A stretch of 53,001 nucleotides of DNA from Candidatus Parcubacteria bacterium (GTDB lineage Bacteria > Patescibacteriota > Minisyncoccia > Phycocordibacterales > EsbW-18): contig JBDKFZ010000009.1 of assembly GCA_039798445.1 (NCBI GenBank), forward strand, positions 1 to 53,001, given 5' to 3'. Every line of letters starts with the position of its first letter. Position 1 is the stretch's first letter. The notes below the pieces were generated by a model that saw nothing but the letters and a program-made list of their open reading frames with translations, made no database searches and was not told the DNA's origin. The translations under genes were made by a program, and so were the position numbers. Positions 15,657 to 30,550 of this stretch are shown here, one piece after another.

Positions 15657-16934
15657 TTACTCTACTACTGGAGAGACGTCCGCGACCCATCCGCGGAGGT
15701 CTTTTTTGTTTATGAGAGAGAGAATGGTGCCGTCGTCAGAGAGGTCGAGATTGATGATATCCATTGTCTGGTTGGCGTCGGTGTCTTCGGGCGCGTAGAG
15801 GAAGTCGTATATTTCATTCGCCACGTCGATTACCCAAATGCTGTCATTGAAAGAAGTGTTGCCTTGATACCACGCATCGGGCGTGTTGGCAGGGATGTTG
15901 TCAGGGATTGCACAGATGATTACGTCGTCGTCACGCCAGACGCATTTCTCAGGAAGGGTTCGGACCGACAACGGCTTTGTCTCTTGTGTGGCGCGTGTGA
16001 GAACAAACGAACGGAGCGTGTTTTGGGATGCGGTCGTATAAAGAACACGTGTGCCTGATGGGCTTGGCAGCACGGTCAAGCCGTTTCCCGAGATGACGCG
16101 GGTTGCACCACCATCCTTTTGTAGCGCATATGAAACGCCAGCAGCAGAGACAGAAGGTTTCGACGTGACGAAAATCTCCTCTGACGTCTCCCACGACGAT
16201 ACCCATTCGCGGAGTGGAGATGCGAAGACTGTCTTTTGATTTTGATTGGTGAGGGTTGAGAGCTTCCCGACACCTTGGTTCTGCGTCATTGTCATAAAGA
16301 AGGCCTCAGATCCGGTGGCACTCAAAGAAAACGAAGATATGTTTTGAGGGAAGAAGATGCCGGTAAGGTCATAGGGGTCTGGTCGCATTGTGGTCTTGAG
16401 ACGTGCAACGTATGTCTCGATTGTTTCGTTGTCTTCCGTGAGATAACGAAGTGCAACGGACGATCCGTTCTCTCCCCAGAGGACCTCTTGGATCGCAGGA
16501 ATCGTTGTGTTTGTCACGCGGAGCTCCTCCCCCGTTTCAAGGGAGATGTCATTGATGTGTCCGGTCTCACGCTCGACGAAGCGCACAAACTCCTCGGTTG
16601 TCGTAGCGCCCGTGGTCGTTGAGACTTCGATTGTGGTCGTGAACGTCGCGCCTGCGAGTATTGTGTTTCCTATTGGGAGCATCTGTGCACGTCGGAGACG
16701 TTCGCGGAATGAGGGTCCAGCCGGTGTCTCGACAGGTGTTGTTGTGGCAACAGGAGTCTCGTCATCACTAAATCCAAATGTGTCACCAAAGAAAGAAAGG
16801 AATCCGCGCTGCTCGCTCGTTGGTGTTGTGTCGACTCTTGTCCCGCTGGTTGTTGCGCGCACAAAGAACCAAACGCCGACCGCGATGGCGATTCCGATGA
16901 TGAGGATTGATGTGAGGATGGTCCAGCGTTTCAT
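15657..16934 (-). CDS. Hypothetical membrane-anchored extracytoplasmic protein (425 aa)
   Basis: N-terminal TM (ILTSILIIGIAIAVGVWFFV), a T-rich linker, and a beta-rich repetitive body. Last gene of the VirB4 operon. Confidence 0.6.
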   Translation of the reverse strand: MKRWTILTSILIIGIAIAVGVWFFVRATTSGTRVDTTPTSEQRGFLSFFGDTFGFSDDETPVATTTPVETPAGPSFRERLRRAQMLPIGNTILAGATFTTTIEVSTTTGATTTEEFVRFVERETGHINDISLETGEELRVTNTTIPAIQEVLWGENGSSVALRYLTEDNETIETYVARLKTTMRPDPYDLTGIFFPQNISSFSLSATGSEAFFMTMTQNQGVGKLSTLTNQNQKTVFASPLREWVSSWETSEEIFVTSKPSVSAAGVSYALQKDGGATRVISGNGLTVLPSPSGTRVLYTTASQNTLRSFVLTRATQETKPLSVRTLPEKCVWRDDDVIICAIPDNIPANTPDAWYQGNTSFNDSIWVIDVANEIYDFLYAPEDTDANQTMDIINLDLSDDGTILSLINKKDLRGWVADVSPVVE

Positions 16935-16940
16935 AGTAGT

Positions 16941-17765
16941 TTAAAAAGATACGTGCCAATGAGGAGCAACTCCTGGGCCACACTGAGCATCTTCCCAGTG
17001 GAATGTCAGACCGTCTTTGACCTTACCTTGAAAACAGGTACCCCCCGCTCCCCCAATGTAGGCATTTATTCCAGATTGCTGTCTGAGGTCGACGGTCCTA
17101 TTGTCTCTGTGGGTATTGTGGAGCCAATATTCTGTGCCAGCAGTAACGATGATCCGACAGCTTGGCTGGGCTGCCACGCACCGCGACTTGAGATTGATAA
17201 GACCTTCGATGGCACCCTGTGTGAGTCCGTGGACACTTGTGCACCCTCTTTGTCCGATGGTGGTGCAGTTTGCATTGTTTATGCCGATTCCTGCTGCTAA
17301 AAGGGCCTCTCGCTCGCTTGCATCACTCGGCCATGCCTCACCATCGTCAGTAGGAGTTGGTGGGGGCGGCGCGCCGCTTATTGCTGCATCAGCCGCCTGG
17401 TCGAGGCTCCTGACGAGATCGAACTTCACGAGGTTTGGATTGATGGTGTAGAGGATGAGCCACGCGCTAAAAGCGAGGATGAGACCCCAAACGATATTGC
17501 CGAGATTATTCTTGGAGGCGATTTTGACTCCCGGAATATCGGAGAACATGTACTGGATGCCGTTGATGACGAGCATAACGACGGCGAGTGTTACCGCAAT
17601 ACCGATGCCAAGCTGGAACAAGCCGTTCAGGTAGCTGCCAAAATCAGCGCTTTGTCCGATGAACGGGAGGTCTTTGACGATGAGATAGTCAGACGGTGCA
17701 GCCGAAGCAATCGAGGCGACGGTGAGGATCGATGCTGAGGCGAGATAAGAAAAGGTTTTTTTCAT
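16941..17765 (-). CDS. VirB2/TrbC-like pilin domain fused to a LAS (M15-like) zinc peptidase domain
   Basis: Signal peptide and two TM helices (LFQLGIGIAVTLAVVMLVINGIQYMF, IVWGLILAFSAWLILYTINPNL), then a PPPPTP linker. The C-domain has IIVTAGTE, HRDNRTVD (H-x6-D) and a terminal HWH. Confidence 0.65.
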   Translation of the reverse strand: MKKTFSYLASASILTVASIASAAPSDYLIVKDLPFIGQSADFGSYLNGLFQLGIGIAVTLAVVMLVINGIQYMFSDIPGVKIASKNNLGNIVWGLILAFSAWLILYTINPNLVKFDLVRSLDQAADAAISGAPPPPTPTDDGEAWPSDASEREALLAAGIGINNANCTTIGQRGCTSVHGLTQGAIEGLINLKSRCVAAQPSCRIIVTAGTEYWLHNTHRDNRTVDLRQQSGINAYIGGAGGTCFQGKVKDGLTFHWEDAQCGPGVAPHWHVSF

Positions 17766-17767
17766 AT

Positions 17768-18496
17768 TTATTCCAAAAAGAGTGTCGTTTTTCCAGAAGC
17801 GTTCTCGAGAATCCGGCCACTGTTTGCTATCGAGACTCCGACGGTTGTGGTGCCTGCCGCAGATTCTGATCGTAGAACCAGTCGGCCACTGTTACCGAGT
17901 GGGTTGGAGACACTCGAACTATTCACCTCCCATCGATATGAAAGAGCGGGGTTGTCACGCCGTGTTGTGGTAAAGAAAAGCGGGTACGTTTCTACAACAA
18001 GCTCTTCACCGTTGAGACGGGGGTTTTCGACGTTGAACAAGACTCCTCCAAGTGGTGCGTCGGCATAGACGAGCACACGAGGTTTGGTGAGTGGTATGCG
18101 GAGCGCACCTGTTCCGATGGGGCCCTTTTCATCAGAGACTTCGACGACGATGAGGGGAGATCCACCGAAGATCTCGCTACGGACTTCGTATGTGTTCTTG
18201 CCGACTCCTGAGCGTGCTCCATCAACGGCCCCATCAACGCGCCACGAATAGCTTGTCTTGTCGGTTGCGGCAATTCCTGAAGGTAGGAATGCGACGATTC
18301 GACCATCTCCCCCATCGGGCATAAGCGCCTTACCTTTGTAGAAAGGTGGCACGTACGAGCGGGCTTCCCAAACGAGTGTGATGTTGGGAGTGACGTTTTT
18401 TGTGACTACGTTCACCTGGGCGAGCGCAGATGACGAGACGAATGCGAACGATAGTGCGAATATTGCGAGGAGGTATTTCATGAGGCGTGGATTCAT
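17768..18496 (-). CDS. Hypothetical secreted protein with two beta-sandwich-like repeats
   Basis: Signal peptide MKYLLAIFALSFAFVSSSALA. Internal duplication (SYSWRVDGAV... and LSYRWEVNSSSV...). Confidence 0.55.
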   Translation of the reverse strand: MNPRLMKYLLAIFALSFAFVSSSALAQVNVVTKNVTPNITLVWEARSYVPPFYKGKALMPDGGDGRIVAFLPSGIAATDKTSYSWRVDGAVDGARSGVGKNTYEVRSEIFGGSPLIVVEVSDEKGPIGTGALRIPLTKPRVLVYADAPLGGVLFNVENPRLNGEELVVETYPLFFTTTRRDNPALSYRWEVNSSSVSNPLGNSGRLVLRSESAAGTTTVGVSIANSGRILENASGKTTLFLE

Positions 18497-18521
18497 GTGT
18501 ATTATCTCCTATTTATCGTTC

Positions 18522-19649
18522 CTATGAAACGTCGTCATTCACATCTCTGGGGATGGGCGTTGCACCGCTAGGTGTCGTATCTACCACCGCTTCCGGAGAG
18601 GCCTCTTTTTGTCGCACATCGAAGTCGACGGGCTTGCCACCTTGCCGTGTGCCACGGCCGAATGAGGATGAGCCTGCTCCTGGGAAAGGAATACGTTGCT
18701 CTTCGGTGCGGCTCGCTTGTCGAGGCAATGAATCGATTCCTCGTGGTGTCGCTGACTCAAGTGCGTAGGGGTCTTCTTGATAGGGGTCAGGGGTGAACGA
18801 TGTATCTTCTTGTGATGGCCGGAGTCCAGTCACGACTTCCTCGTCTTGAGGATTGGGCTGTCGCCGCGATGCTGGCGGAGTTCTTTTTGGCGCTGGTTTC
18901 GCTGGTGTAGCACCTTTGGTTACAGGTACAGAGGGGTCGGCAAAATGTTCTTCTTGTGAGGCGGTGACGGGGTTCTTTTCAGGGGTTATGAGGGTAGGTC
19001 GGTTTGGAGTCTCGGGAGTTGCTCCTCGCGCACCCGATGGTGATTTGCTCCCCTTGATATGTGGGGTCGCGCCAGTGAGCGGGGGCAGTTCGCCGCCCTC
19101 TCGAAGTGGAGTCTCATATTTGTGCCACAAGTCCATGGCGAGCATGATGAGCTTCACCATCTTTTTTTCTCGATAGTGTGCCATCAGGACCAAGATGGTG
19201 TTCGCAGGAACCAGTTTGAGGATGGGGATAGATTCTAAAACGAGGACCCCGACCATCCAAAGCCAAAAACGTTTGATGAGAAAACCTCTCCACCAGGTGC
19301 CGTTCATCTTTCCAAGAAACCAAAAGAATAGGATTACCCAGAGGATCCACCCTAAGATCAATACGACGACATATCCCACACCGGTCAGCTCGAGAAGTGT
19401 AAAATCGATAAGGTCTTTACAGATGGAACAGTAGAGGGCAAAAAACGGGAGTGAGGGCGAAGGTGGTGGCGGGTCGTTTCGGACGATGGCCATCTCCGTC
19501 TCTTTTTCAACATCCTCTCCGTTTTTTTTGAAGATATCGCGTATGCCTCGAATGCCTTCTCGCACCAGATTTTCTGTTTCTGCGGAGGGCTGGTCCGTGG
19601 GAGATGTTGCTCCTGCTGATGGATTGTTCGGAGTTTCGTTTTGTGGCAT
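18522..19649 (-). CDS. Hypothetical polytopic membrane protein with a long disordered P/T-rich tail
   Basis: About 4 TM segments in the centre (YVVVLILGWILWVILFFWFL, WLWMVGVLVLESIPIL...) and a low-complexity C-terminal half. Confidence 0.55.
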   Translation of the reverse strand: MPQNETPNNPSAGATSPTDQPSAETENLVREGIRGIRDIFKKNGEDVEKETEMAIVRNDPPPPSPSLPFFALYCSICKDLIDFTLLELTGVGYVVVLILGWILWVILFFWFLGKMNGTWWRGFLIKRFWLWMVGVLVLESIPILKLVPANTILVLMAHYREKKMVKLIMLAMDLWHKYETPLREGGELPPLTGATPHIKGSKSPSGARGATPETPNRPTLITPEKNPVTASQEEHFADPSVPVTKGATPAKPAPKRTPPASRRQPNPQDEEVVTGLRPSQEDTSFTPDPYQEDPYALESATPRGIDSLPRQASRTEEQRIPFPGAGSSSFGRGTRQGGKPVDFDVRQKEASPEAVVDTTPSGATPIPRDVNDDVS

Positions 19650-19664
19650 GAGAGCCGGCTTCTA

Positions 19665-21731
19665 CTACTGAAGCACGTTCTTCAATTCTACACCCTCAGT
19701 GATGCTTTTCGGAGGCTCAGGAGCGATGCTTTGTGCCGGTTGTGCTGCGGGACGCTGTGGTGCAACGACAGATGCATCGCCTGATGATGGTCGTGTTTTT
19801 GTTGCGGCAGGAACAGTGTCTGATGCCAGCGTATCGTCGGACGATGGCTTTGTTTTTTCTGGAACGAGTGCGGGTGCGGGCATCGCGGTCTCTGCTGCAT
19901 TCTCCGCGGCGGTCGTCTGGGCTTGTCGGTATTCTGCCTTTGCCTTTTTGATAGCCATCACCTGTGACGGATCGGACGTGATGATTTGGTCTTCGGTGTA
20001 TGAAGCGATGGTTTTGATGGCGACGTGTTTGAGTCCCGCAAAGAAGATGCCCTCCCCTACTTCTGATTCGAGCAAGAGATATTTTTCTTCGTCGGTGAGG
20101 TTGAATGTCTTCTGAACCAAATCAACCGATGATGGTGATTGTTTGAGCAGAACTTGGATCGATGAGTTTGTGATGATTGGGAGACCGTATGGTGAGCGCA
20201 AGAAGTCGCCGACGTCTTGTGTGATTGTTGCGATACCCAAGAAGTATTTGCGGCCACGTTTTGCAAGACCAAAGAGGAGCGATGCGGTGTCTTCTGACTT
20301 CATCATCCACCACGCCTCATCGACGACGAGGAGACGTTTCTTGATGTCGCGGCGGACCGCGCTCCAGATGTAGTGTGTGATGAGATACATCGCAACCGGC
20401 TTCAATTCATCTTCCATGTCGCGCACCGAGAACACAACGAACTTCTTGTTGATGTCGACGTTCGATGGGTTGTTGATGAATCCAGACCATGTTCCTTTTG
20501 TGTATTTGGAAAGACGCGTCACGAGCGACTCCCCTCCTTCCATGCCGGCCAAGACAAGCTCAAAGTCAGAGAGAAGCGGTGGTTGTGCACCTGCCCAGTC
20601 GGCTTCGCCGGTGATGTCTTTGAGCGCGTATGTCTCGGTGAGCGCGCGGTCGACGATGGCGTCTTCTTCGGGAGTGAGATTGCCGAACATAATACGGAAG
20701 AGACCGACGAGTGTCACGATGTGTGAACGCAGAACGTTGTTCGGTGTCTCATCTTCTTTGACTGGTGGCAGGTCAAACGGATTGATGTGGTGCTCCGACG
20801 TAAGCGAGATGTTGAAATAGCGGCCACCCATCGATTCAGCCATGAATTCGTATTCGCGCTCGGGGTCGATGACGATGACTTCGGTCTCGAACATGAGTGT
20901 GCGGAGAATTTCGAGCTTCGTTGCATATGATTTACCAGCACCTGACGTTGCGAACGTTACCGAGTTGTAGTTTGGGAGCGAGAAGCGGTCGAACAAGATA
21001 AGCGACGAGTTGTGGCGGTTCACACCGTAGAGAATCCCCTTGTCTGAGGTGAGGTCGAACGAAACGAATGGGAAGAAGCTCGAAAGCGGTGATGTGTTGA
21101 GTTTCGAGTGAACATTGAGTTCATCGAGTTGGATCGGAAGAACACTGCGGAAGCCTTGTTCTTGCTGAAAAAGCGCAGGTTTGAGGTAGATGAGGCGAGC
21201 TTCGAGGATTGAACGAATTTCGGACTCCATCTTATCGAGCTCGTTCTGGCTCTCGGCATAGATTGATATATAGAGACCGACATCGAAGAGTTTCTCGGTC
21301 GCCTGCTGGAGCTGGTCGCGCAACCCTTCGAGGTTCTGGTAGGCAGCATCGAGCATCGGATCGCGCACGAGACCCTTCTCTTCTCGCATATGAATCTGGC
21401 TCTGCACTTCGGCAACGCGCTTACGGAAATCTTTGAGCGCGACCGATGTCTCAATCGGCATGATTGAAATCGAAATGTCGAAGACCTTATCCAAGTTGAT
21501 GATCGGCGAAAGCCAGTTGTCCGGGATGAAACGTGGGTATGAGATAACGAAGAAGGTGCGCACGATGCGGTCACCAAGATTGAGTTCGCGTGGTGTGATC
21601 TTGAGCGCCGAAGGAGCAAGGATGTCTTTGAGTTCCAAGACTCCTGCCTCGTAGATGTCTTTTGGAAGGACCGGTGTTATCTCCGGAGCACCTGCTGTTT
21701 TTCGTTTTGTTAAGAAATCAAAGAAAGACAT
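19665..21731 (-). CDS. VirB4/TrbE/ConE-like T4SS ATPase
   Basis: Walker A ATSGAGKSYATK and Walker B RLLVVDEAWWMM. N-region pattern ILAPSALKITPRELNLGDRIVRTFFVISYPRFIPDNWL. Disordered C-tail. Confidence 0.8.
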   Translation of the reverse strand: MSFFDFLTKRKTAGAPEITPVLPKDIYEAGVLELKDILAPSALKITPRELNLGDRIVRTFFVISYPRFIPDNWLSPIINLDKVFDISISIMPIETSVALKDFRKRVAEVQSQIHMREEKGLVRDPMLDAAYQNLEGLRDQLQQATEKLFDVGLYISIYAESQNELDKMESEIRSILEARLIYLKPALFQQEQGFRSVLPIQLDELNVHSKLNTSPLSSFFPFVSFDLTSDKGILYGVNRHNSSLILFDRFSLPNYNSVTFATSGAGKSYATKLEILRTLMFETEVIVIDPEREYEFMAESMGGRYFNISLTSEHHINPFDLPPVKEDETPNNVLRSHIVTLVGLFRIMFGNLTPEEDAIVDRALTETYALKDITGEADWAGAQPPLLSDFELVLAGMEGGESLVTRLSKYTKGTWSGFINNPSNVDINKKFVVFSVRDMEDELKPVAMYLITHYIWSAVRRDIKKRLLVVDEAWWMMKSEDTASLLFGLAKRGRKYFLGIATITQDVGDFLRSPYGLPIITNSSIQVLLKQSPSSVDLVQKTFNLTDEEKYLLLESEVGEGIFFAGLKHVAIKTIASYTEDQIITSDPSQVMAIKKAKAEYRQAQTTAAENAAETAMPAPALVPEKTKPSSDDTLASDTVPAATKTRPSSGDASVVAPQRPAAQPAQSIAPEPPKSITEGVELKNVLQ

Positions 21732-21733
21732 GA

Positions 21734-22861: not shown

Positions 22862-22887
22862 AACACCCCGCAGATGCGGGGTGTTTT
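22861..22887. terminator. Bidirectional terminator
   Basis: aaacaccccgc agat gcggggtgttt. Confidence 0.75.
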
Positions 22888-22896
22888 CAACTCTCT

Positions 22897-23484: not shown

Positions 23485-23493
23485 AAATGTTCG

Positions 23494-25752
23494 TTAGAAT
23501 ACTAATCCGTTAATAGAGGTGAGCCAACCGACTGACGCGCTAAGCGTGTTCAGTTTAAGTTGCTCGTCTACTGTCAGAGGTCGTCCTGTTATTGCGGATA
23601 GACGGGCGTGTTCGGCAGTGATGTTAGCTCGTATTGTGCTCTTGTCTGCGTCGCTCATTTTGCCGTCAGTGGCAATCTTAGCAAGAGTGTTTGCTGAGAG
23701 ATGTCCAGAGACAGCAGCATTCGTGAGGACATCTGACGGTAATTGTGCGACCTCGTGAGGTTTGCCGGAGGCGATTTTCTTCGCCTCCTTATTGACATCC
23801 GCGACACTCTTTCCAGGATTGACATTGAGCCTATCAAGAAGACCGGTCTTGCGTGCGCCGTTGATTTCATTCTTAACCGTATCGCTGACAAGATCACTCG
23901 ACATAATCTTGTCCATATGTTTCGAGGTGAGGTCGGGCGCCATTTTCTTGAGTTTGTCGATCTGTCCAGTTGCCAACATTTCCTCGATTTGTTTATCAGT
24001 CATTCTTGAAACAGTCTCAAGATAATCCTTGATGGCGCCTGTTGTGGAGTCGTATGTGCCCGCACTGAGATCTTTCTGTGTTTGTACAAGACCGTCCTTA
24101 ATCTTCTGTGCATCGTTCGCCTCCTTAACAGCCTGGCCGAGCTCTTTCTGACGCTGGAGAGCTGCCTTTTCGCGGTCGGCAAGGCTTTCTTGTGAACCGA
24201 ATTTTGATGCAGCAGTTGTCTTGAGTGTATCGCGGATACCTTCATCAATAGGTGTTCTCCGGGCGATACCAGCAATCGTTCTTCCTGCTGCAAATTTGGC
24301 TACACCTGTAACACCCTTGGCATCTTTAAAGGTGAGCTGAGACATGCGGCCCATAGCAGTGTCGTACTTTTCTCCGGCAAATCGAGCGCCTCTACCAAAA
24401 GTATTGCGTCCGAGGAAGCCAAGGACCGCTCCCGGTGCTCCTTGCGCCTTCTTGATCGCCCAGTTGGCGGCCCCATTTGATGCTGCACCTGCGGTACTCT
24501 TGGCAACGACCATACTCACAATGAGGAGGCCGATGACGATGGCATATTGAACGAGACCCTCTACACCACCAACCAATCCAGGCACAGATTCTGCTGAGAA
24601 CCTACCTCTAAACTCCGGGTTTGAAACGACAACCGCAGTGACCACCAAGAAGAGCATCATGAGCGGTGCAAACACGGCTTGATCGATAAGCGTCTTCCAC
24701 CATTTTTTGGAATACCCTGCTATTTGCGGGAAAAGGCCACCCATCACCGAGACCGGTGAGGTTATGAGAAGGATGATGAGGACAACGAACCGGCCGAGAA
24801 GCAAGAAGCCCATCGCAAAGAATACGAATGCCAAAATGAGGAATGTGATCGAAGAGAAGATCATCTGCTGCAACAAAGTCGCCACGAAGGATGCCGCATT
24901 CAGGTCTTTGATAGCGGCAACTTGGATTCCTGTCCCCTGCATGAAGACTGCAGTAATGCCACCCGGTGTTCCAACGACGCTGTTATCTTCGCCCGCCTCG
25001 ATGTTGTCACCGATCCTTCTCACCGCTTCGTGCATCTGTACGGTGAGGACGTTCGATGCGTCGATGATGACGCTTGTGAAGAAGAAGCTGAAGTTGATGA
25101 GAAGGCCCGCGATGACGACTCCTTTGACGATACCCTTCTCTTTACCGAGACCAAGAATCATCGATATCGATGCATACAAAAGAAGGAAGATGAATGTGAT
25201 GTTCATCGTGTCGCGCAAAACGGTCCATGCGATGCGGATGCCTGGCAATGCTGCCCAGTTGTGAAAATCTAATATGGACAGCTTGATGACGAGGTCGAGG
25301 AACATCGCAGAGATCCACACCAAGAAACCAAATGTCGAGTAGATGGCGTAATAGAAGAGCCTTCCGATGACACAGTTGAGATCTGGAGAGAGCCAACCTC
25401 CGCAGTCGATATCTTGTGGTTCTGCCGGAGGCTGAGGTGATGCCGCGATACCGCTTCCAGCAGGGGCGTTTGCAACACATGCGGACCCCTCTTGGTGTTG
25501 TCCGGCCGGACACGACATGGTGTCAGGAGACCATGGCTCATCATCGACACACCCCGATCCTTCTTGGTGCTGTCCTACTCCACACGAGATTGTATCGGGG
25601 ATACAGCCAAAACCGCTTGGGTCTGGGTGGGTACCAGGCTGACATGTTTGTGCAAGGCTCTGCTGTGGAGCAAAGAGAATGAATCCTGCTAGCACCAAGA
25701 AACTGATGCTGGTTGTGAGGAGAGCTATTTTTTTACCCCAGTTTGTTTTCAT
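23494..25752 (-). CDS. VirB6/TrbL-like polytopic membrane protein with a Cys-repeat ectodomain and long C-terminal soluble domain
   Basis: Signal peptide, 3x C-x2-G-x-H-x3-5-SG-x-C repeats, about 7-8 TM helices, and a roughly 300-aa K/A/T-rich C-domain. Confidence 0.55.
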   Translation of the reverse strand: MKTNWGKKIALLTTSISFLVLAGFILFAPQQSLAQTCQPGTHPDPSGFGCIPDTISCGVGQHQEGSGCVDDEPWSPDTMSCPAGQHQEGSACVANAPAGSGIAASPQPPAEPQDIDCGGWLSPDLNCVIGRLFYYAIYSTFGFLVWISAMFLDLVIKLSILDFHNWAALPGIRIAWTVLRDTMNITFIFLLLYASISMILGLGKEKGIVKGVVIAGLLINFSFFFTSVIIDASNVLTVQMHEAVRRIGDNIEAGEDNSVVGTPGGITAVFMQGTGIQVAAIKDLNAASFVATLLQQMIFSSITFLILAFVFFAMGFLLLGRFVVLIILLITSPVSVMGGLFPQIAGYSKKWWKTLIDQAVFAPLMMLFLVVTAVVVSNPEFRGRFSAESVPGLVGGVEGLVQYAIVIGLLIVSMVVAKSTAGAASNGAANWAIKKAQGAPGAVLGFLGRNTFGRGARFAGEKYDTAMGRMSQLTFKDAKGVTGVAKFAAGRTIAGIARRTPIDEGIRDTLKTTAASKFGSQESLADREKAALQRQKELGQAVKEANDAQKIKDGLVQTQKDLSAGTYDSTTGAIKDYLETVSRMTDKQIEEMLATGQIDKLKKMAPDLTSKHMDKIMSSDLVSDTVKNEINGARKTGLLDRLNVNPGKSVADVNKEAKKIASGKPHEVAQLPSDVLTNAAVSGHLSANTLAKIATDGKMSDADKSTIRANITAEHARLSAITGRPLTVDEQLKLNTLSASVGWLTSINGLVF

Positions 25753-25778
25753 GTGTTCGGTATCGAAGTTGTCTCGCC

Positions 25779-27479
25779 TTATTCTTCAACCGTCGCACCT
25801 CCCGATTCAAAATTCACCTTTAGGTTCTTCCATGTAAAACCATCGGCGAGACCTTCATCTGCTGACGCATTTTCGGCGTTGCCGAGCTTGATGAAGAACC
25901 CACCGCGACCGCGCTGATCTCCACTTTGGAGTACATCAACTGTTGTGTCCTGGGAGACAATGGTCGAACCATCGACTTTTAAGGTCATGTTTCCGTTACC
26001 TGGGTTGTAGTCGACGATGACATGGTACGTGATGTTGTCTCGGAACGGGCTTCGCACAGACTTCTCGAGCATGTCACAGCTGTTCACAGCTGTTGCAAAA
26101 CGAACCTTACCGTTTTCTGTATTCAAAACAACCTCTGCAATATTGTTCCCTCCCCACTCTGATTGGTCTATATTCGGTCCTCGGTGGAGCCAGAACAAGT
26201 TGAGTTGTGAGGCATAGTCAGGGGCCGTTTGTGGTGCTGTGGTCAAATCAAACTCAGCTGTTACACGTGAGTAGTTCTGTCCAGGTGGGACATCAATATT
26301 GATTTCTTTGAATGGGTCATCGGCTGTTGAGGTGAATGCTTGTGGTTCGTTGACCAGTTGTCCATTCGGTCGGCCGGGCTCTCCTGCACCGCTACTTGGG
26401 GGTGTACATGCACCACCGCCACCGCCAACAGGAGGAGGTGGGAGCTCATGATCGATTTCCTCAGGGTCGTACTCCGCGAGGCCACCCTCTTGCGTGAGGA
26501 TGTCTGAGATGAGCCATGCGGCGAGAAGATTGAAGATCTCATCAAACTCATCGGCGGTCGCTATTTGGTCGAGGTTCACACCAAACGCTTGTTCGAGTGA
26601 CGTCTTGATTTGTGCTCCTGGAGTAACGACTCGTGGAGGATCACAGACGGTGCCGGATGGTGGAGGACCAACCTGAGTTTCGTCATAGGGTGTTGGGGGG
26701 CCTGCCTGGTCATCAGGAAGAGGCGTATAACAATCTTGCACCTCTTTTGAAAGGAATCCGCTACCGAGATCTATTTTTATTGACGCTTCACCTGATGCCG
26801 AATTGATTTTGGTGGCAAGCTCGTTGCGCGCCTCGAAGTATGCGCCGTAGGGGTTATTTTGAGGATTCGAAAACATCGATCGCCACCCGTCCCATCCACC
26901 GGCAGAGAAGTCGCCTGCAAGGAAAGCATCGATGTTCTCGACGCTCTCGCTGAGGGTACAGCTCGATCCATTGATACCGAGTGGGCCGCGTCCACTCGAA
27001 TTCTTGTAGAGCATGTTGAGCTGTAGCTGGATGTCAGCACGGAACGGAGAACAAAGGAATGGCGCGGCATTTTCGATGTAGCTGCCGACTTGTCGATCGG
27101 CAACGTTTCGAAGATATGCACCGATGTTTTGCACGAACGCAGGGTTGCCATTCATGCCTGTTTGTACCCACTGTACTGTCGAGCCGGTCATCTCTTGAAT
27201 GATGGCGTTCTTGAATGCCCAAAAGAGACAGTCGAGAATCTGCTCCTTGATGTTGGTCGCGATATCGTTCGTGGGCACGTTCATGCCGCCTGCGATGAAA
27301 CTGATGACCATGAGGATGGCTGCCGTCGCCGCACACATGACGACACCATTCTCGAAGTTCTCCTGGGTATCGTCGCTGAAGCTGCCGAATCCAGCATCGG
27401 CAACAATTGGAGTCACAATGTTCGTAACAAAAGCAAAGACGACGAGGAGTGTGAGGAATTTTCGTGCGAGAGTGTTCAT
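25779..27479 (-). CDS. Hypothetical membrane-anchored protein (566 aa) with a beta-sandwich-like C-domain
   Basis: N-terminal TM(s). Conserved-looking segment ILDCLFWAFKNAIIQEMTGSTVQWVQTGMNGNPAFVQN, a PPPPVGGGGG linker, and a jelly-roll-like C-terminus. Confidence 0.5.
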   Translation of the reverse strand: MNTLARKFLTLLVVFAFVTNIVTPIVADAGFGSFSDDTQENFENGVVMCAATAAILMVISFIAGGMNVPTNDIATNIKEQILDCLFWAFKNAIIQEMTGSTVQWVQTGMNGNPAFVQNIGAYLRNVADRQVGSYIENAAPFLCSPFRADIQLQLNMLYKNSSGRGPLGINGSSCTLSESVENIDAFLAGDFSAGGWDGWRSMFSNPQNNPYGAYFEARNELATKINSASGEASIKIDLGSGFLSKEVQDCYTPLPDDQAGPPTPYDETQVGPPPSGTVCDPPRVVTPGAQIKTSLEQAFGVNLDQIATADEFDEIFNLLAAWLISDILTQEGGLAEYDPEEIDHELPPPPVGGGGGACTPPSSGAGEPGRPNGQLVNEPQAFTSTADDPFKEINIDVPPGQNYSRVTAEFDLTTAPQTAPDYASQLNLFWLHRGPNIDQSEWGGNNIAEVVLNTENGKVRFATAVNSCDMLEKSVRSPFRDNITYHVIVDYNPGNGNMTLKVDGSTIVSQDTTVDVLQSGDQRGRGGFFIKLGNAENASADEGLADGFTWKNLKVNFESGGATVEE

Positions 27480-27482
27480 GAT

Positions 27483-28481
27483 TTATGGGGTGATGGTGGC
27501 ATGAACAAATGCATAACCCGGCTCCCCTGGTAGGAACTCCGTGTTCGATTTTACGAATGAAGCGCGGAGTTTTTCGAACAGGCCTGTCATGAGTGCCGAA
27601 TCTTTTTGGTATGCGTCGAGCGCCGCGATCGCCATAAGAGGATTGTCCCCCACTTTTGACAGGTCAACAAGGTCGGTACGCACAGCGATGAGTGCATTGG
27701 TGAGTGCAAGATGTGCATCTGCTCTGTCTGCAGAGACGCCCATACCTATGAAGTTATCGATAGTCACATCGTAGCGCTCAACCACAGCAGCCATGTCCTG
27801 CTGAAACTTTTCTGAGTCGGGCGCTTGGATGTAACTCAGCATGACGGAGAGCTCGCTTGGCGCTGGAGTACCACTTGTGTTCATGAGCGCTGTTCCGACG
27901 GCGTTCCCGTATGCTTTTGCTGACATTGTGCCCGCGATGATGGTGAGATCTGCCGTCGAGGCAATTGGATACGTGCGGTTCAGGTCTGTGGTCCCAAGCG
28001 CGATCTGTCCTGCAAGTGCAATTGAGTCCTCTTTCAAAGGTATGCCAGCTTCTTTTGCAGTAAGGAATTGAGAGATGAGTATTTTTCCTGCCAACTCTGT
28101 TGGTGTCGGAGGAGCTGCATCAAGGTCGATGGTGTTGAGAACGATTGCAGGAGCATCAGCAACGGTCTTTCTGCGGTTCTCGACTTCTTGATAATCTCCG
28201 GTTCCATCCCCATCACTATCGGGATTCACTGGGCTCAGCCCCCAGAGGTCTTCTTCCCAGTCTTTGAGTTTGTCTCCGTCACTGTCTTTCTCCTCGGTCT
28301 CTGTTCGGGGGGTGGTTGTATCAGAAAGAGAGACACGCATGGCGGACTCTTTGCCAAAAGAAGGTTCGCTGCGGAAGATCACTACCGCGACGACTATTGC
28401 CGCGACCACTATCAAAAGTGAAGCAACCCGCTTGCTCGGCGCGAATGCGCGCGCCTCGGAAACAAAACCCATATATGACAC
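27483..28481 (-). CDS. Hypothetical membrane-anchored protein with DxDxDG calcium-binding-like repeats
   Basis: TM LLIVVAAIVVAVVIF, then DSDGDKLKDWEED...NPDSDGDGTGDYQE (thrombospondin type 3-like). Confidence 0.5.
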   Translation of the reverse strand: MSYMGFVSEARAFAPSKRVASLLIVVAAIVVAVVIFRSEPSFGKESAMRVSLSDTTTPRTETEEKDSDGDKLKDWEEDLWGLSPVNPDSDGDGTGDYQEVENRRKTVADAPAIVLNTIDLDAAPPTPTELAGKILISQFLTAKEAGIPLKEDSIALAGQIALGTTDLNRTYPIASTADLTIIAGTMSAKAYGNAVGTALMNTSGTPAPSELSVMLSYIQAPDSEKFQQDMAAVVERYDVTIDNFIGMGVSADRADAHLALTNALIAVRTDLVDLSKVGDNPLMAIAALDAYQKDSALMTGLFEKLRASFVKSNTEFLPGEPGYAFVHATITP

Positions 28482-28558
28482 ATATGATAGTACATTCTAA
28501 TGAAGACTACTAAGGAATAAGTGAATATTTTTCCAAATCATGTACAGTTGAGGATGAA

Positions 28559-29293
28559 ATGAAATCACGAAGCATCAGCACTGCATTTTTCTTGTTCGCT
28601 TTCTTCACGATTGTTCCGTTTTCTGCGCATGGGTATACGTTTTCTCGCGACTTGAAGCTCGGCGATTCCGGAGAGGACGTCCGCGCCCTCCAAATGAGCC
28701 TCAATGCCAACACGCAGACGCGCGTCGCTGCCTCAGGTGTTGGATCTCCGGGTCAAGAAACAAATTTTTTTGGAGAAAAGACGCAATCGGCTGTGATTCG
28801 GTACCAAAATCTCCACGCCGACGATATATTGCGCCCGATTGGGCTTGCTGTGGGGACTGGATATGTCGGTGCAGCAACGCGAAATAGGCTTAGTGGAAAC
28901 ACTGGTGGCGGAACCACTACCAAAAAAAGCCTCAACGAGGCCATTGCTGCCTTTGATACGGCCCTTGGGGTCTCTCCTGGCGCTGAAACAAATCGTTCCC
29001 CTGTCGACGACCCACGCATTCCTAAGACAGAAGACGAGCTCATTGCGGCGGTCGATGATTTTGCGGGTTCAGACGTAAGTGATGCAGAGATCGTGGACTT
29101 TAGCAGACAAATGGTCATTGCGCGCTATGGGTATTCAACGGAGATTCAGGGTTCGTCGGGTGATGATGACGAAAGCGATACTGGTGATGGAGACGATGAT
29201 GGTGGGGGTGGCAGTTCGGGAGGCCAGGAATTTGACACGGGTGGTAGCGGTGCAGGCTGCATTGGGCTTCTCTTAAGCTTTCTCGGACTCTAA
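28559..29293 (+). CDS. Secreted protein with a peptidoglycan-binding (PG_binding_1-like) domain
   Basis: Signal peptide, then LKLGDSGEDVRALQMSLN...FFGEKTQSAVIRYQ. Acidic and G-rich tail. Confidence 0.6.
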   Translation: MKSRSISTAFFLFAFFTIVPFSAHGYTFSRDLKLGDSGEDVRALQMSLNANTQTRVAASGVGSPGQETNFFGEKTQSAVIRYQNLHADDILRPIGLAVGTGYVGAATRNRLSGNTGGGTTTKKSLNEAIAAFDTALGVSPGAETNRSPVDDPRIPKTEDELIAAVDDFAGSDVSDAEIVDFSRQMVIARYGYSTEIQGSSGDDDESDTGDGDDDGGGGSSGGQEFDTGGSGAGCIGLLLSFLGL

Positions 29294-29297
29294 AACT

Positions 29298-29762
29298 ATG
29301 ACACCACTTATTACAAAGGTATTTTCGGGGATTATCGTTTGTTCCGGCTTCCTACTTGCCCTTAATGTGTGGCTTTTTAACCCTGAACCAACGGTTGCTT
29401 TCGGACTCATCCCGTTTGAAGGGTACCCAGTATATATTGAGTACAACTGTCTTTGTTCAGGCTCTATTATGGTGACAGTTCAGCCTTCGGTGACTGCTAT
29501 TGGCCCACAACAAAATGTCGATCTTCTCTATGTGTGGGCGGCTGACCTACTTTCAAACTTTATAGATCTTGGTCCGTTTTCCGGCCTTGTTCCTCATGCA
29601 TACCTCTGGTGCGGGGTGGCTTGGGAAGGAGAACACACACTCCTTGGCAACTATGTTCCTGGAGCCTTCCCGTGCTACCAATTTGTCGGGCCTCCTGACT
29701 GGTGCCGGTTCAGGAGCAACGCCAAGGGCGCGATTCTCAACGTTGGTTCGTCGCTCTTCTAG
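29298..29762 (+). CDS. Hypothetical membrane-anchored Cys-containing protein (154 aa)
   Basis: N-terminal TM. The 3' end overlaps the rsmA 3' end by 4 nt (convergent). Confidence 0.45.
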   Translation: MTPLITKVFSGIIVCSGFLLALNVWLFNPEPTVAFGLIPFEGYPVYIEYNCLCSGSIMVTVQPSVTAIGPQQNVDLLYVWAADLLSNFIDLGPFSGLVPHAYLWCGVAWEGEHTLLGNYVPGAFPCYQFVGPPDWCRFRSNAKGAILNVGSSLF

Positions 29763-30535: not shown

Positions 30536-30550
30536 ATATATAGAATGCGC

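What the first reader, a model, noticed from the sequence alone, without database searches (positions are those of the whole stretch)
15657..29762. 14-kb envelope cluster: a stripped-down VirB2/B3/B4/B6-type machine with no coupling protein, relaxase or integrase, plus about 8 unnamed surface proteins
Seen: 13 ORFs, nearly all with a signal peptide or TM segments. They form two tightly packed minus-strand operons (28481->22897 and 22384->15657, gaps of 2-26 nt). A plus-strand PrgI/VirB3-like gene separates them, and a divergent PG-binding gene pair flanks them. Recognisable parts are a VirB4 ATPase (ATSGAGKS, LLVVDEAWWMM), a PrgI-like protein, a VirB6/TrbL-like polytopic protein and a VirB2-like pilin. 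I did not see a VirD4/TraG coupling ATPase, relaxase, VirB8-11, or an adjacent integrase or att repeats anywhere in the 53 kb. Established: VirB2/3/4/6 plus a wall hydrolase is the conserved core of Gram-positive conjugation channels. Inference: this is a resident chromosomal cluster near the origin with no DNA-processing genes. It is therefore more likely a surface organelle (DNA uptake, adhesion pilus, or delivery into a partner cell) than an ICE. More than half of its proteins have no family I can name.
Basis: partly seen in the sequence, partly recalled or inferred. Interest (0 to 1): 0.8.

Follow-up and report, generated by a model that had tools for sequence, protein, structure and literature searches.

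The report
Known Patescibacteria type IV secretion cluster
This is the chromosomal type IV secretion machine that ultra-small Patescibacteria (CPR) carry next to their replication origin; it is real and well conserved, but it was described in 2023-2025, so the finding is a rediscovery with a few new details.

Summary
There are 13 ORFs at the stated coordinates, forming two tight minus-strand operons. VirB4, PrgI/VirB3 and a VirB2-like pilin each pass curated HMM cut-offs. No ORF in the 53 kb matches a relaxase or coupling-protein family. No att repeats or tRNA flank the cluster.

The window is a Paceibacteria (Parcubacteria) chromosome around dnaN-dnaA-rnpA-yidC. The same gene order recurs in 43 of 43 related genomes with full flanks, so the cluster is resident, not an ICE.

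This is the system published by Wang et al. 2023 and Quinonero-Coronel et al. 2025. Those papers describe a Patescibacteria T4SS derived from monoderm MPF-FATA conjugation machinery. It has pilins, mostly lacks relaxases, and often sits near dnaA/dnaN/rnpA/ksgA. In Saccharimonadia it is essential for epibiotic growth.

Details added here:
- VirB4 is split into g6 and g5.
- The single pilin (g2) carries a C-terminal domain with a conserved HxxxxxxD...HxH motif and a weak hedgehog/DD-peptidase-like fold. It is probably a Zn cell-wall peptidase.
- g1, g3, g4, g10 and g11 are conserved unnamed envelope components. g10 has swappable lectin-like C-termini.
- VirB4 is more conserved than DnaA.
- The VirB6 assignment rests on topology, gene position and 9 of 54 orthologues only.

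The parts
15657..16934 (-). g1, 425 aa. It has an N-terminal membrane anchor and an extracytoplasmic domain with weak TolB-type beta-propeller similarity. It is a conserved unnamed component.
   Evidence: TM segment at the N-terminus. tblastn hits in 43 of 43 full-flank loci, always between the pilin gene and yidC. The orthologue profile matches the TolB beta-propeller in the PDB at E 1.3e-3. No Pfam or NCBIfam match.
16941..17765 (-). g2, 274 aa. It consists of a signal peptide, a VirB2-like pilin helical hairpin (about residues 42-113), a Pro-rich linker, and a 134-aa Cys-rich C-terminal domain that is a probable LAS-type (hedgehog/DD-peptidase-like) Zn hydrolase.
   Evidence: Pfam T4SS_pilin 29.3 bits (gathering score 26.6), TrbC 22.2 bits. 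NCBIfam Mbov_0395 pilin-like, 5e-5. H216, D226 and H269 are invariant, and H219, H271 and 3 Cys are nearly invariant, in 27 homologues. The AF2 model of the C-terminal domain has pLDDT 95.8. Foldseek matches: a phage multidomain lysin at E 1.6e-3 (prob 1.0), a Microviridae 'Sonic hedgehog'-like protein at E 1.7e-2 (prob 0.97), PDB Shh-N at prob 0.6, and the 1lbu Zn DD-peptidase. This domain is found in 12 of 80 related loci and always inside the pilin ORF. g2 is the only pilin-like ORF in the window.
17768..18496 (-). g3, 242 aa. A secreted protein made of beta-rich, Ig-like repeats. It is a conserved unnamed component.
   Evidence: Signal-peptide-like N-terminus. tblastn hits in 74 of 80 loci and 43 of 43 full-flank loci. 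The profile gives only weak matches to Ig-like domains (Hoc, E 8e-3). No Pfam match.
18522..19649 (-). g4, 375 aa. A small-membrane-protein core (2 TM helices, residues about 58-163) with long, Pro-rich, probably disordered tails.
   Evidence: TM hairpin. An HMM built from the ORFs at the same position (between virB4 and g3) in 48 loci matches g4 residues 58-163 at E 7.9e-15. Plain tblastn found it in only 3 loci.
19665..21731 (-). g5, 688 aa. The VirB4 ATPase (CD1110/MPF-FATA type), lacking the first ~185 positions of the full-length VirB4 profile.
   Evidence: NCBIfam conju_CD1110 equivalog 359.5 bits (cut-off 325), covering profile positions 185-734 of 752. Pfam P-loop_TraG 1.4e-22. 77-100% identical to thousands of Patescibacteria VirB4 proteins. 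At most 35-36% identical to Firmicutes and Actinobacteria plasmid VirB4.
21734..22384 (-). g6, 216 aa. A cytoplasmic TrsD-like protein that corresponds to the detached N-terminal domain of VirB4.
   Evidence: NCBIfam VirB4_plasma 3.8e-12 over profile positions 101-233. BLASTP aligns g6 residues 8-207 with residues 25-197 of the full-length VirB4 of C. botulinum pCDC3875 at E 3e-4. It lies 2 nt upstream of g5. Present in 78 of 80 loci at 57% median identity.
22445..22861 (+). g7, 138 aa. A PrgI/VirB3-type membrane protein. It is inverted here relative to most relatives.
   Evidence: Pfam PrgI 48 bits (gathering score 27), TcpE 28.7 bits. Present in 78 of 80 loci. Co-directional with the operon in 41 of 43 full-flank loci, and inverted only in L002 and L059, as in the window.
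22860..22887 (.). A perfect 13-bp palindrome between the convergent stop codons of g7 and g8. It is a probable bidirectional terminator that ends operon g11-g8.
   Evidence: the repeat finder pair I1: AAAACACCCCGCA / TGCGGGGTGTTTT, 100% complementary, 2-nt loop.
22897..23484 (-). g8, 195 aa. A helical N-terminal part with a Pro/Ala-rich tail. It is a variable component.
   Evidence: No family match. tblastn hits in 13 of 80 loci, always between g9 and g7.
23494..25752 (-). g9, 752 aa. A candidate 'extended' VirB6: signal peptide, Cys-rich extracellular repeats, 6 TM helices (residues 137-417), and a ~330-aa hydrophilic C-terminal region.
   Evidence: Topology. Its position upstream of PrgI matches that of the VirB6/TrbL gene in pCDC3875. 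9 of 54 orthologues hit Pfam TrbL, best E 6e-5. The window protein itself has no hit. hhalign against the CD1112-type VirB6 is negative.
25779..27479 (-). g10, 566 aa. It is membrane-anchored or secreted. It has a conserved, unnamed ~270-aa N-terminal domain and a variable C-terminal module that may be lectin-like in this copy.
   Evidence: N-domain hits in 41 of 43 full-flank loci. A profile of the N-domain finds 6,330 clusters (50% identity) at E<=1e-3, with no Pfam or PDB match. C-termini of orthologues carry F5/8 type C (6 of 47), bacterial Ig-like, PKD and BNR domains. In the window copy only a weak Laminin_G_2 match is seen, E 0.024.
27483..28481 (-). g11, 332 aa. An N-terminal membrane anchor, a pair of DxDxDG Ca-binding loops, and a helical extracytoplasmic domain.
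   Evidence: TM at residues 18-36. D66/D68/D70/G71 and D88/D90/D96 are nearly invariant. The profile matches the Ca-binding region of the Bap surface protein at 1.5e-7, and calmodulin loops. Present in 29 of 43 full-flank loci.
28559..29293 (+). g12, 244 aa. A secreted protein with a peptidoglycan-binding domain and an acidic, Gly-rich tail. It is transcribed divergently from g11.
   Evidence: Pfam PG_binding_1 25 bits (gathering score 23). Present in 13 of 43 full-flank loci, always at this position and in this orientation.
29298..29762 (+). g13, 154 aa. A small Cys-rich secreted or membrane protein that is lineage-specific.
   Evidence: No family match. A hit in only 1 of 80 loci.
11390..15649 (.). 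Left flank: dnaN, dnaA, rnpA and yidC. This is the replication-origin neighbourhood and is not part of the machine.
   Evidence: Pfam matches. The same flank occurs in 43 of 43 full-flank loci. The cumulative GC skew minimum lies at about 10-12 kb.
29759..32542 (-). Right flank: ksgA (rRNA adenine dimethylase) and uvrD/pcrA. Not part of the machine.
   Evidence: Pfam matches. ksgA is present in 38 of 43 full-flank loci at the same position.

Best explanation
The cluster is the vertically inherited, chromosomally fixed type IV secretion system of a Paceibacteria (Patescibacteria/CPR) genome. It is encoded beside the replication origin.

Shown:
- The cytoplasmic motor is a VirB4 ATPase split into two polypeptides: g6 (N-terminal domain) and g5 (the rest).
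- g7 is a PrgI/VirB3-type membrane protein, and g2 is a VirB2-like pilin.
- The gene order VirB6-like, PrgI, VirB4, small membrane protein, then a wall-hydrolase-bearing gene parallels clostridial MPF-FATA conjugation modules.
- The cluster sits between the same housekeeping genes in dozens of genera. It has no relaxase, coupling protein, integrase or att sites next to it.
- The ATPase is under stronger constraint than DnaA, while the extracytoplasmic parts evolve fast.

Inferred:
- g7 docks VirB4 on the membrane and g9 forms a VirB6-like polytopic channel.
- The machine assembles a short pilus or tube from the pilin g2. In this lineage g2's outward-facing C-terminus carries a Zn peptidase-like domain that could cut peptidoglycan, either its own wall for assembly or the host's.
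- g10 (variable lectin-like end), g1 (beta-propeller), g3 (Ig-like repeats) and g11 (Ca-binding) form the extracellular, host-facing part.
- The system serves the epibiotic lifestyle as a conduit to the host cell, exporting proteins or importing host macromolecules. It does not serve conjugation.

The direction of transport and the substrate are unknown.
For: Identity of parts: (HMMs above curated cut-offs for VirB4, PrgI, T4SS_pilin and PG_binding_1). Searches show the split VirB4.

Taxonomy: all 120 best VirB4 relatives that carry a name are Patescibacteria, Parcubacteria or Paceibacterota, and the locus titles agree.

Residency: the order uvrD-ksgA-(g12)-g11-g10-g9-(g8)-g7-g6-g5-(g4)-g3-g2-g1-yidC-rnpA-dnaA-dnaN recurs in the 43 loci with full 10-kb flanks. 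There is no GC anomaly. No tRNA or att-like repeats flank it.

No DNA-processing genes: Pfam scans of all sizeable ORFs.

Constraint: median identity to relatives is 76% for VirB4, against 56.5% for DnaA, 44% for YidC and 50% for KsgA. For g1, g3, g9 and g10 it is 28-32%.

MPF-FATA relationship: the best plasmid VirB4 matches are Firmicutes and Actinobacteria at about 35% identity, and pCDC3875 has the colinear order VirD4-VirB6-PrgI-x-VirB4-small-SLT hydrolase.

Pilin-hydrolase.

Variable adhesin-like ends.

Literature: PMC12102498 describes the same system, its lack of relaxases and its dnaA/dnaN/rnpA/ksgA neighbourhood. PMC10633639 shows the T4SS and pilin genes are essential for epibiotic growth of Southlakia epibionticum, reports no recognisable coupling protein or relaxase, and shows a comEC deletion is viable. 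PMC12857230 is a review proposing a pilus conduit. bioRxiv 10.64898/2026.06.21.733656 reports tubular structures at a parasite-host interface that 'may be T4SS pili'.
Against: - No experiment exists for any Paceibacteria T4SS. Essentiality is shown only in Saccharimonadia, whose cluster has a different layout (pilin arrays).
- The VirB6 assignment is weak for this protein.
- No VirB8-like component was identified.
- The Zn-peptidase assignment rests on a motif and on marginal fold matches. No M15/LAS HMM matches.
- A coupling ATPase or relaxase could lie elsewhere in the genome, which I could not scan.
- The roles proposed for g1, g3, g10 and g11 are inferred from domain type and evolutionary rate only.
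Confidence: 0.8

Rival explanations
1. It is a functional conjugation system whose coupling protein, relaxase and oriT are encoded elsewhere in the genome. The cluster would then be only the mating-pair-formation half.
For: VirD4-like genes are frequent in Patescibacteria genomes but rarely lie near virB4: 5,713 homologues, 148 of them near virB4 (PMC12102498). T4CP genes lie far from virB4 in many conjugative systems. The VirB4 passes the NCBIfam cut-off for a conjugal-transfer ATPase family.
Against: Only 109 relaxases were found in 103 Patescibacteria genomes, against more than 2,400 virB4 genes (PMC12102498). In S. epibionticum the distant t4cp homologue is not essential, whereas the T4SS genes are (PMC12102498, citing PMC10633639). 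The cluster's position is fixed in 43 of 43 genomes and VirB4 is more conserved than DnaA. That pattern fits a core cellular function better than a transfer function.
Confidence: 0.07
2. It is a DNA- or nucleic-acid-uptake machine, analogous to the ComB T4SS of Helicobacter or the archaeal Ced system. It would feed a cell that cannot make nucleotides.
For: CPR bacteria lack nucleotide synthesis. ComM (34514-36055) is encoded in the same window. A weak partial CedB match covers the P-loop region, E 5.8e-7. In class ABY1 the T4SS co-localises with comF, recG and radA (PMC12102498). A 2026 preprint proposes host-RNA feeding and links VirB4 to macromolecule transfer (10.64898/2026.06.21.733656).
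Against: In S. epibionticum competence depends on type IV pili and ComEC. A comEC deletion abolishes transformation but is viable, while the T4SS is essential (PMC10633639, PMC12857230). A separate PilB-type pilus ATPase is present here at 2577-4253. No VirB7, VirB9 or VirB10 family matched any of the 13 cluster proteins, and the CedB match covers only about 70 residues of the shared ATPase fold.
Confidence: 0.1
3. It is a decaying remnant of an integrated conjugative element that has lost its mobility genes and has no current function.
For: It derives from conjugation machinery and lacks relaxase, T4CP and integrase. One gene (g7) is inverted relative to most relatives.
Against: All 13 ORFs are intact with tight spacing. 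VirB4 is 76% identical (median) across 80 genomes and more conserved than DnaA. Synteny is preserved in 43 of 43 loci. There is no compositional anomaly. Essentiality has been shown in a related class (PMC10633639).
Confidence: 0.01

Closest known systems
Patescibacteria-clade T4SS (Quinonero-Coronel et al. 2025, Microb Genom, PMC12102498; Wang et al. 2023, Cell, PMC10633639: SEML1_0006-0019 of Southlakia epibionticum)
   Same: VirB4 with an adjacent TrsD-like protein, PrgI/VirB3, a divergent VirB6 and a VirB2-like pilin. No relaxase or T4CP nearby. Chromosomal location next to dnaA/dnaN/rnpA/ksgA, as that paper reports for Paceibacteria. Monoderm-type composition with no VirB7, VirB9 or VirB10.
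   Different: The experimentally studied Saccharimonadia cluster has an array of 6 short pilins, and separate peptidase and lysozyme genes downstream of virB4. This Paceibacteria cluster has one pilin with a fused enzyme-like C-terminal domain, plus conserved unnamed genes (g1, g3, g4, g10, g11) that the main text of that paper, which is what I read, does not name.
MPF-FATA conjugation modules of Firmicutes (CTn2/CD1110-type, e.g. Clostridium botulinum plasmid pCDC3875; also pCF10 prg/pcf and pGO1 trs)
   Same: VirB4 of the CD1110 family. A PrgI-family VirB3. The gene order VirB6-PrgI-x-VirB4-small protein-wall hydrolase is colinear. The TrsD-like split-off VirB4 N-terminal domain is known from pGO1.
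   Different: Here there is no VirD4 or relaxase and no plasmid or ICE context. VirB4 is only about 31-35% identical. A VirB2-like pilin is present, which Gram-positive systems lack. The hydrolase is not an SLT/CHAP VirB1 but a small LAS-like domain fused to the pilin. VirB6 is not detectably similar to CD1112.
T4SSs that work without a coupling protein (Bordetella Ptl, Brucella VirB)
   Same: A VirB4-driven secretion machine with no VirD4 encoded in the locus, and a non-conjugative function.
   Different: Those are diderm MPF-T systems with VirB7-11 and known protein substrates. This one is a monoderm-type system with an unknown substrate.
LAS / hedgehog-type Zn peptidases (MEROPS M15 DD- and LD-peptidases, phage L-alanoyl-D-glutamate endolysins, Streptomyces albus DD-peptidase 1LBU, Shh-N)
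   Same: The g2 C-terminal domain has an invariant H-x6-D ... H-x-H pattern, a small alpha/beta sandwich, and weak Foldseek matches to Shh-N, 1LBU and phage lysins.
   Different: No M15, VanY or hedgehog HMM matches it. It has 4 conserved cysteines and is fused to a T4SS pilin, an arrangement I did not find described in the papers read.

Membership tests
Patescibacteria-clade T4SS (PMC12102498) | VirB4 ATPase related to MPF-FATA VirB4 and grouping with Patescibacteria VirB4 | tested here: met
   NCBIfam CD1110-family equivalog 359.5 bits (cut-off 325). Pfam P-loop_TraG 1.4e-22. The 120 best relatives are 72-100% identical, and every one that carries a name is from Patescibacteria. No tree was built.
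Patescibacteria-clade T4SS (PMC12102498) | TrsD-like protein (VirB4 N-terminal homologue) next to virB4 | tested here: met
   g6 lies 2 nt upstream of g5. It matches VirB4_plasma profile positions 101-233 at 3.8e-12. It aligns to residues 25-197 of a full-length clostridial VirB4 at E 3e-4.
Patescibacteria-clade T4SS (PMC12102498) | VirB3/PrgI-family membrane protein near virB4 | tested here: met
   g7: Pfam PrgI 48 bits against a gathering score of 27.
Patescibacteria-clade T4SS (PMC12102498) | VirB2-like pilin near virB4 | tested here: met
   g2: Pfam T4SS_pilin 29.3 bits against 26.6. 49 of 55 positional orthologues match the same model. AF2 predicts a helical hairpin at residues 42-108.
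Patescibacteria-clade T4SS (PMC12102498) | VirB6/TrbL-type polytopic membrane protein | tested here: inconclusive
   g9 has the right topology and position, and 9 of 54 orthologues hit Pfam TrbL, best E 6e-5. g9 itself has no hit, and hhalign against the CD1112 VirB6 is negative.
Patescibacteria-clade T4SS (PMC12102498) | No relaxase associated with the cluster, and chromosomal location near dnaA/dnaN/rnpA/ksgA | tested here: met
   No relaxase or T4CP Pfam family in any window ORF. The flanks are dnaN-dnaA-rnpA-yidC and ksgA-uvrD, conserved in 43 of 43 loci.
Patescibacteria-clade T4SS (PMC12102498) | Required for epibiotic growth on a host | not testable with these tools
   Shown only for Southlakia epibionticum by Tn-seq (PMC10633639).
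Integrative conjugative element / conjugative MPF-FATA system | Relaxase (MOB) and oriT | tested here: not met
   No relaxase family found in the 53 kb. The rest of the genome is not available.
Integrative conjugative element / conjugative MPF-FATA system | VirD4/TcpA-type coupling ATPase | tested here: not met
   The ORFs of about 450 aa or more are PilB, PBP1, DnaA, VirB4, g9, g10, UvrD, ComM, the CCA enzyme, and two secreted proteins with no family match. None matches a T4CP family. This holds for the window only.
Integrative conjugative element / conjugative MPF-FATA system | Integrase with flanking att repeats or a tRNA target, and variable presence among relatives | tested here: not met
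   No tRNA lies within 20 kb of the cluster. Only two short imperfect direct-repeat pairs were found. The XerC/D-type recombinase is 12 kb away. The cluster is present at the same site in 43 of 43 relatives.
LAS (M15/hedgehog-type) Zn peptidase, for the g2 C-terminal domain | Zn-ligand motif H-x(3-6)-D ... H-x-H | tested here: met
   The motif H219-x6-D226 ... H269-x-H271 is conserved: H216, D226 and H269 are invariant, and H219 and H271 are present in at least 90% of 27 homologues.
LAS (M15/hedgehog-type) Zn peptidase, for the g2 C-terminal domain | Hedgehog/DD-peptidase fold | tested here: inconclusive
   The AF2 model has pLDDT 95.8. BFVD matches: a phage lysin at E 1.6e-3 (prob 1.0, TM 0.52) and a Microviridae 'Sonic hedgehog'-like protein at E 1.7e-2 (prob 0.97). 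PDB matches: Shh-N at prob 0.6 (TM 0.41) and 1lbu at TM 0.38, neither significant.
LAS (M15/hedgehog-type) Zn peptidase, for the g2 C-terminal domain | Match to a curated M15, VanY or hedgehog sequence model | tested here: not met
   No such Pfam family for any of the 23 domain sequences, even at E<=10. The profile search against PDB sequences found nothing relevant.

The most novel reading that the evidence does not exclude
In a subset of Paceibacteria the T4SS pilin is itself an enzyme carrier. On this reading, each VirB2-like subunit displays a Zn peptidoglycan peptidase on the outside of the filament or at the membrane; in other lineages the displayed domain would be a subtilase, a lysozyme-like domain or an unnamed domain. 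The pilus would then act as a wall-cutting probe that opens the host envelope. The g10 family's swappable lectin ends would set host specificity. A pilin-hydrolase fusion of this kind is not mentioned in the papers I read.
Probability: 0.2. Interest if true: 0.6.

Novelty: already known. Interest (0 to 1): 0.3.

Why it matters
The system matters for CPR biology because it is the leading candidate for the physical link between these ultra-small epibionts and their hosts. That case has already been made in print, so this window adds an instance, not a discovery.

Four things here may be useful to a specialist:
1. A Paceibacteria-specific parts list: ten genes conserved in order, five of them unnamed.
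2. Evidence that VirB4 is split, and that it evolves more slowly than DnaA while the surface parts evolve fast.
3. A candidate pilin-hydrolase fusion that could take the VirB1-like wall-hydrolase role, which the 2025 survey leaves open for most Patescibacteria.
4. A very large unnamed domain family, the g10 N-domain, with 6,330 clusters at 50% identity. It deserves a family model.

Tried and rejected
- Peptidase_M15 and other hydrolase HMMs on all 13 proteins gave no hit.
- Foldseek of the full-length g2 model returned only spurious histidine-kinase matches, caused by the helical hairpin plus alpha/beta domain. I therefore re-modelled the C-terminal domain alone.
- Profile searches of orthologue alignments against PDB sequences gave the following. 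g9: only coiled-coil noise. g10: only lectin matches to variable C-termini. g3: weak Ig-like matches. g1: a weak TolB match.
- hhalign of the g9 family against a clostridial CD1112 VirB6 was negative.
- BLASTP of g6 against g5 showed no similarity, so g6 is not a duplicate of the g5 N-terminus.
- BLASTP of g7 against the clostridial PrgI was not significant, although both match Pfam PrgI.
- The search for a VirB5-like identity for g10 led nowhere. One of 47 orthologues hits DUF4141, E 1.3e-5. The family-wide searches returned only close relatives with no Pfam domain in the N-terminal region.
- DnaA-box enrichment as evidence for the origin was not significant, 13 matches against 8.8 expected.
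- Rfam found only two tRNAs.
- The promoter and terminator scans did not exceed shuffled controls.
- I looked for inverted repeats that might explain the g7 inversion. Only the terminator palindrome was found.
- No VirB8-like protein was identified.

Full report
**What the window is.** The 53-kb window encodes dnaN (11390-12490, minus strand), dnaA (12737-14110, minus), rnpA, yidC, ksgA, uvrD, ruvB and a PilB-type ATPase, among others. The VirB4 of the finding is 72-100% identical to the 120 best database relatives. Every one of those that carries a name is from Patescibacteria, Parcubacteria or Paceibacterota. The 80 related genomic loci I fetched come from MAGs labelled as Patescibacteria, Paceibacterota, Parcubacteria or their candidate groups; some carry only generic or Saccharibacteria labels. 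The cumulative GC skew has its minimum at about 10-12 kb, next to dnaN and dnaA. The window is therefore the origin region of a CPR (Paceibacteria-class) chromosome. DnaA boxes are not enriched, so the origin assignment rests on gene content and skew.

**Check of the observation.** All 13 ORFs are present at the coordinates given. The two minus-strand runs have gaps of 6, 2, 25, 15 and 2 nt, and of 9, 26 and 3 nt. By a hydropathy scan, eleven of the 13 proteins have a signal-peptide-like start or TM helices; g8's single segment sits at the threshold. Three of the four named components pass curated thresholds:
- VirB4 (g5): Pfam P-loop_TraG 1.4e-22, and the NCBIfam CD1110-family equivalog at 359.5 bits against a cut-off of 325.
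- PrgI/VirB3 (g7): 48 bits against 27.
- T4SS_pilin (g2): 29.3 bits against 26.6.

The fourth, the VirB6-like g9, has the expected topology of a signal peptide, Cys-rich repeats, six TM helices and a long hydrophilic tail. It matches no model itself. Only 9 of its 54 positional orthologues match Pfam TrbL (best E 6e-5), and a profile comparison with a clostridial CD1112-type VirB6 is negative. I treat that assignment as likely but unproven. The 2025 survey likewise reports extreme divergence of VirB6 in this phylum.

No relaxase or coupling-protein family matched any sizeable ORF of the window. No tRNA gene or credible direct repeats flank the cluster. Its GC content does not differ from its surroundings. 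A XerC/D-type recombinase lies 12 kb away at 41750-42694, and nothing ties it to the cluster.

**Resident, not mobile.** I compared all 13 proteins and the flanking genes by tblastn with the 80 loci. In the 43 loci that hold a full 10 kb on each side, the order is uvrD-ksgA-(g12)-g11-g10-g9-(g8)-g7-g6-g5-(g4)-g3-g2-g1-yidC-rnpA-dnaA-dnaN. The hit counts are:
- g1, g3, g5, g6, g7: 43 of 43
- g9: 42
- g10: 41
- g2: 36
- g11: 29

g4 looked unconserved by tblastn. However, an HMM built from the small 2-4-TM ORFs at the same position in 48 loci matches g4 residues 58-163 at E 7.9e-15. Ten genes are thus a conserved Paceibacteria set, while g8, g12 and g13 are variable.

Median identity to relatives is 76% for VirB4, higher than for DnaA (56.5%), KsgA (50%), YidC (44%) or DnaN (40%) in the same loci. 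The extracytoplasmic proteins g1, g3, g9 and g10 are at 28-32%. That pattern fits an indispensable motor with a fast-evolving outward-facing part. It does not fit an ICE or a decaying remnant.

**Relation to known systems.** The closest plasmid-borne VirB4 proteins are from Firmicutes and Actinobacteria at about 31-36% identity, and those that are named belong to the CD1110 family. In Clostridium botulinum pCDC3875 the order is VirD4, a hypothetical protein, VirB6/TrbL (CD1112), PrgI, a hypothetical protein, VirB4, a small protein, then an SLT hydrolase. This parallels g9-g8-g7-g6-g5-g4...g2 read in the direction of transcription.

VirB4 is split here. g5 covers positions 185-734 of the 752-position CD1110 profile. 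g6, which lies 2 nt upstream, aligns to residues 25-197 of the full-length clostridial VirB4 (E 3e-4) and to positions 101-233 of the mycoplasma-ICE VirB4 model (3.8e-12). g6 is what the literature calls the TrsD-like protein.

**The literature already has this.**
- Quinonero-Coronel et al. 2025 (PMC12102498) surveyed Patescibacteria genomes. They found a monophyletic VirB4 clade related to MPF-FATA, with TrsD, PrgI/VirB3, divergent VirB6 and VirB2-like pilins nearby. Relaxases were rare (109, against more than 2,400 virB4 genes), and VirD4 homologues were mostly far from virB4. In Paceibacteria and Microgenomatia the neighbourhood was rich in dnaA, dnaN, rnpA, ksgA and rpmH. They concluded that the system was co-opted for a function other than conjugation.
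- Wang et al. 2023 (PMC10633639) showed by Tn-seq that the T4SS genes and the pilin array of Southlakia epibionticum are essential for epibiotic growth. They found no recognisable coupling protein or relaxase.
- A 2025 review (PMC12857230) notes that a comEC deletion is viable. It speculates that the T4SS and its pilus form a conduit for exchange with the host.
- A 2026 preprint reports tubular structures at a parasite-host contact that may be T4SS pili.

One statement given as established is wrong: Gram-positive conjugation channels normally lack VirB2, and the pilin is the unusual feature of the CPR system.

**What I can add: the pilin.** g2 is the only pilin-like ORF in the window. It is 274 aa, far longer than a VirB2. 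After the helical hairpin (AF2 helices 42-74 and 80-108) and a Pro-rich linker comes a 134-aa domain. Across 27 homologues, H216, D226 and H269 are invariant, while H219, H271 and three cysteines are nearly so. This gives H219-x6-D226 ... H269-x-H271, the zinc-ligand pattern of LAS (M15/hedgehog-type) peptidases. The conserved cysteines fit an extracytoplasmic location.

The domain modelled alone has pLDDT 95.8. Foldseek gives marginal matches:
- a phage multidomain lysin at E 1.6e-3 (prob 1.0, TM 0.52);
- a Microviridae protein labelled as Sonic-hedgehog-like at E 1.7e-2 (prob 0.97);
- in the PDB, Shh-N (prob 0.6) and the Streptomyces Zn DD-peptidase 1LBU.

No sequence model of M15, VanY or hedgehog matches it. 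I rate 'Zn peptidoglycan peptidase' as probable (about 0.65), not shown.

The domain occurs in 12 of the 80 related loci and always inside the pilin ORF. Other lineages carry other C-termini on the same pilin module, including one subtilase and one lysozyme-like SLT_3, and a database relative with an SLT domain. By the known topology of VirB2-family pilins, where both termini lie outside and the loop faces the lumen (established knowledge, not tested here), a C-terminal extension would face outward. That is the basis of the speculative 'enzyme-carrying pilus' reading.

**What I can add: the unnamed components.**
- g10 has a conserved ~270-aa N-terminal domain with no Pfam or PDB relative. A profile of it finds 6,330 clusters (50% identity) at E<=1e-3, of which 3,724 are at E<=1e-30. 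Its C-termini are swapped between lineages: F5/8 type C, bacterial Ig-like, PKD and BNR domains, and possibly laminin-G-like here (E 0.024). This is adhesin-like behaviour.
- g1 is membrane-anchored, with weak TolB beta-propeller similarity (E 1.3e-3).
- g3 is a secreted protein of Ig-like repeats.
- g11 is membrane-anchored, with two DxDxDG Ca-binding loops (Bap at 1.5e-7, and calmodulin loops).
- g12 has a PG_binding_1 domain.
- I found no VirB8-like protein.

**Operon structure.** g7 (PrgI) is on the opposite strand here, but it is co-directional with the operon in 41 of the 43 full-flank loci. It is inverted only in L002 and L059, as in the window, and it is not inverted in the closer relatives L001 and L003. 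A perfect 13-bp palindrome (22860-22887) sits between the convergent ends of g7 and g8, and is probably a bidirectional terminator. The 'two operons separated by a plus-strand gene' layout is thus a local rearrangement and not a feature of the system.

**Mechanism, with status.**
- Shown by sequence: the ATPase (g5 plus g6), PrgI/VirB3, the pilin module, the PG-binding domain, the lack of DNA-processing genes in the window, the fixed chromosomal position, and the conservation pattern.
- Inferred: g9 acts as the VirB6 channel. g2 polymerises. The g2 C-terminal domain cuts peptidoglycan. g1, g3, g10 and g11 form the host-facing part. The machine mediates exchange with the host cell.
- Unknown: the direction of transport and the substrate.

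**Rivals.** The three rival explanations are conjugation with distant T4CP and relaxase genes, nucleic-acid uptake, and a dead remnant. I weigh each in its own section; none is favoured by the data.

**Verdict.** It belongs to a kind already described in 2023-2025. Interest is low to moderate. The pilin-hydrolase fusion and the large unnamed g10 domain family are the only parts that might repay follow-up.

Noticed in passing
window 30551-32542 (minus strand); stop codon at 31112-31114: The uvrD/pcrA helicase is interrupted by an in-frame TAA at codon 477 (...ETLSP*KLIEYIMKESGIE...). Homologous sequence continues in the same frame. This could be a nonsense mutation, a sequencing error or a genuinely split gene. 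Both parts match UvrD Pfam domains.
   Followed up: partly
window 22445-22861 and 22860-22887: The PrgI gene is inverted relative to 41 of 43 related loci. The same inversion is seen in two more distant relatives (L002, L059) but not in the closest ones (L001, L003), which suggests recurrent inversion. A perfect 13-bp palindrome lies at the new convergent junction. No flanking inverted repeats or invertase were found.
   Followed up: partly
window about 34000-38700: A low-GC stretch (0.44-0.47, against about 0.51) holds a Fic-domain protein (36152-37345), an ORF6N/KilA-N-like protein (33973-34500) and two small secreted proteins without a family (37486-38669). It sits next to ComM (34514-36055). 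It may be an inserted element or an accessory island.
   Followed up: no
window 2577-4253: A PilB/GspE-type ATPase (T2SSE 3e-113, with an MshEN domain). This is a type IV pilus or competence-pilus motor, a second and separate envelope machine in the same origin-proximal region.
   Followed up: no
window 42721-46660: Two large ORFs (464 aa with a signal peptide, and 869 aa) have no Pfam family. They lie directly downstream of the XerC/D-type recombinase (41750-42694). They may be further surface proteins.
   Followed up: no
80 related loci (L001-L080) compared with the window: VirB4 (76% median identity) is markedly more conserved than DnaA (56.5%), KsgA (50%), YidC (44%) and DnaN (40%) in the same loci.
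   Followed up: yes
L003:13328-14337: In the closest relative with long flanks, the pilin gene appears frameshifted. The LAS-like domain is in a separate 81-aa ORF (L003:14092-14337), and the pilin ORF ends in unrelated sequence. This is either an assembly error or a pseudogene.
   Followed up: no
L010, L019, L040, L048, L055, L064: Six of 66 loci carry two tandem long pilin genes instead of one. This is a small-scale version of the pilin arrays reported for Saccharimonadia and Microgenomatia.
   Followed up: no
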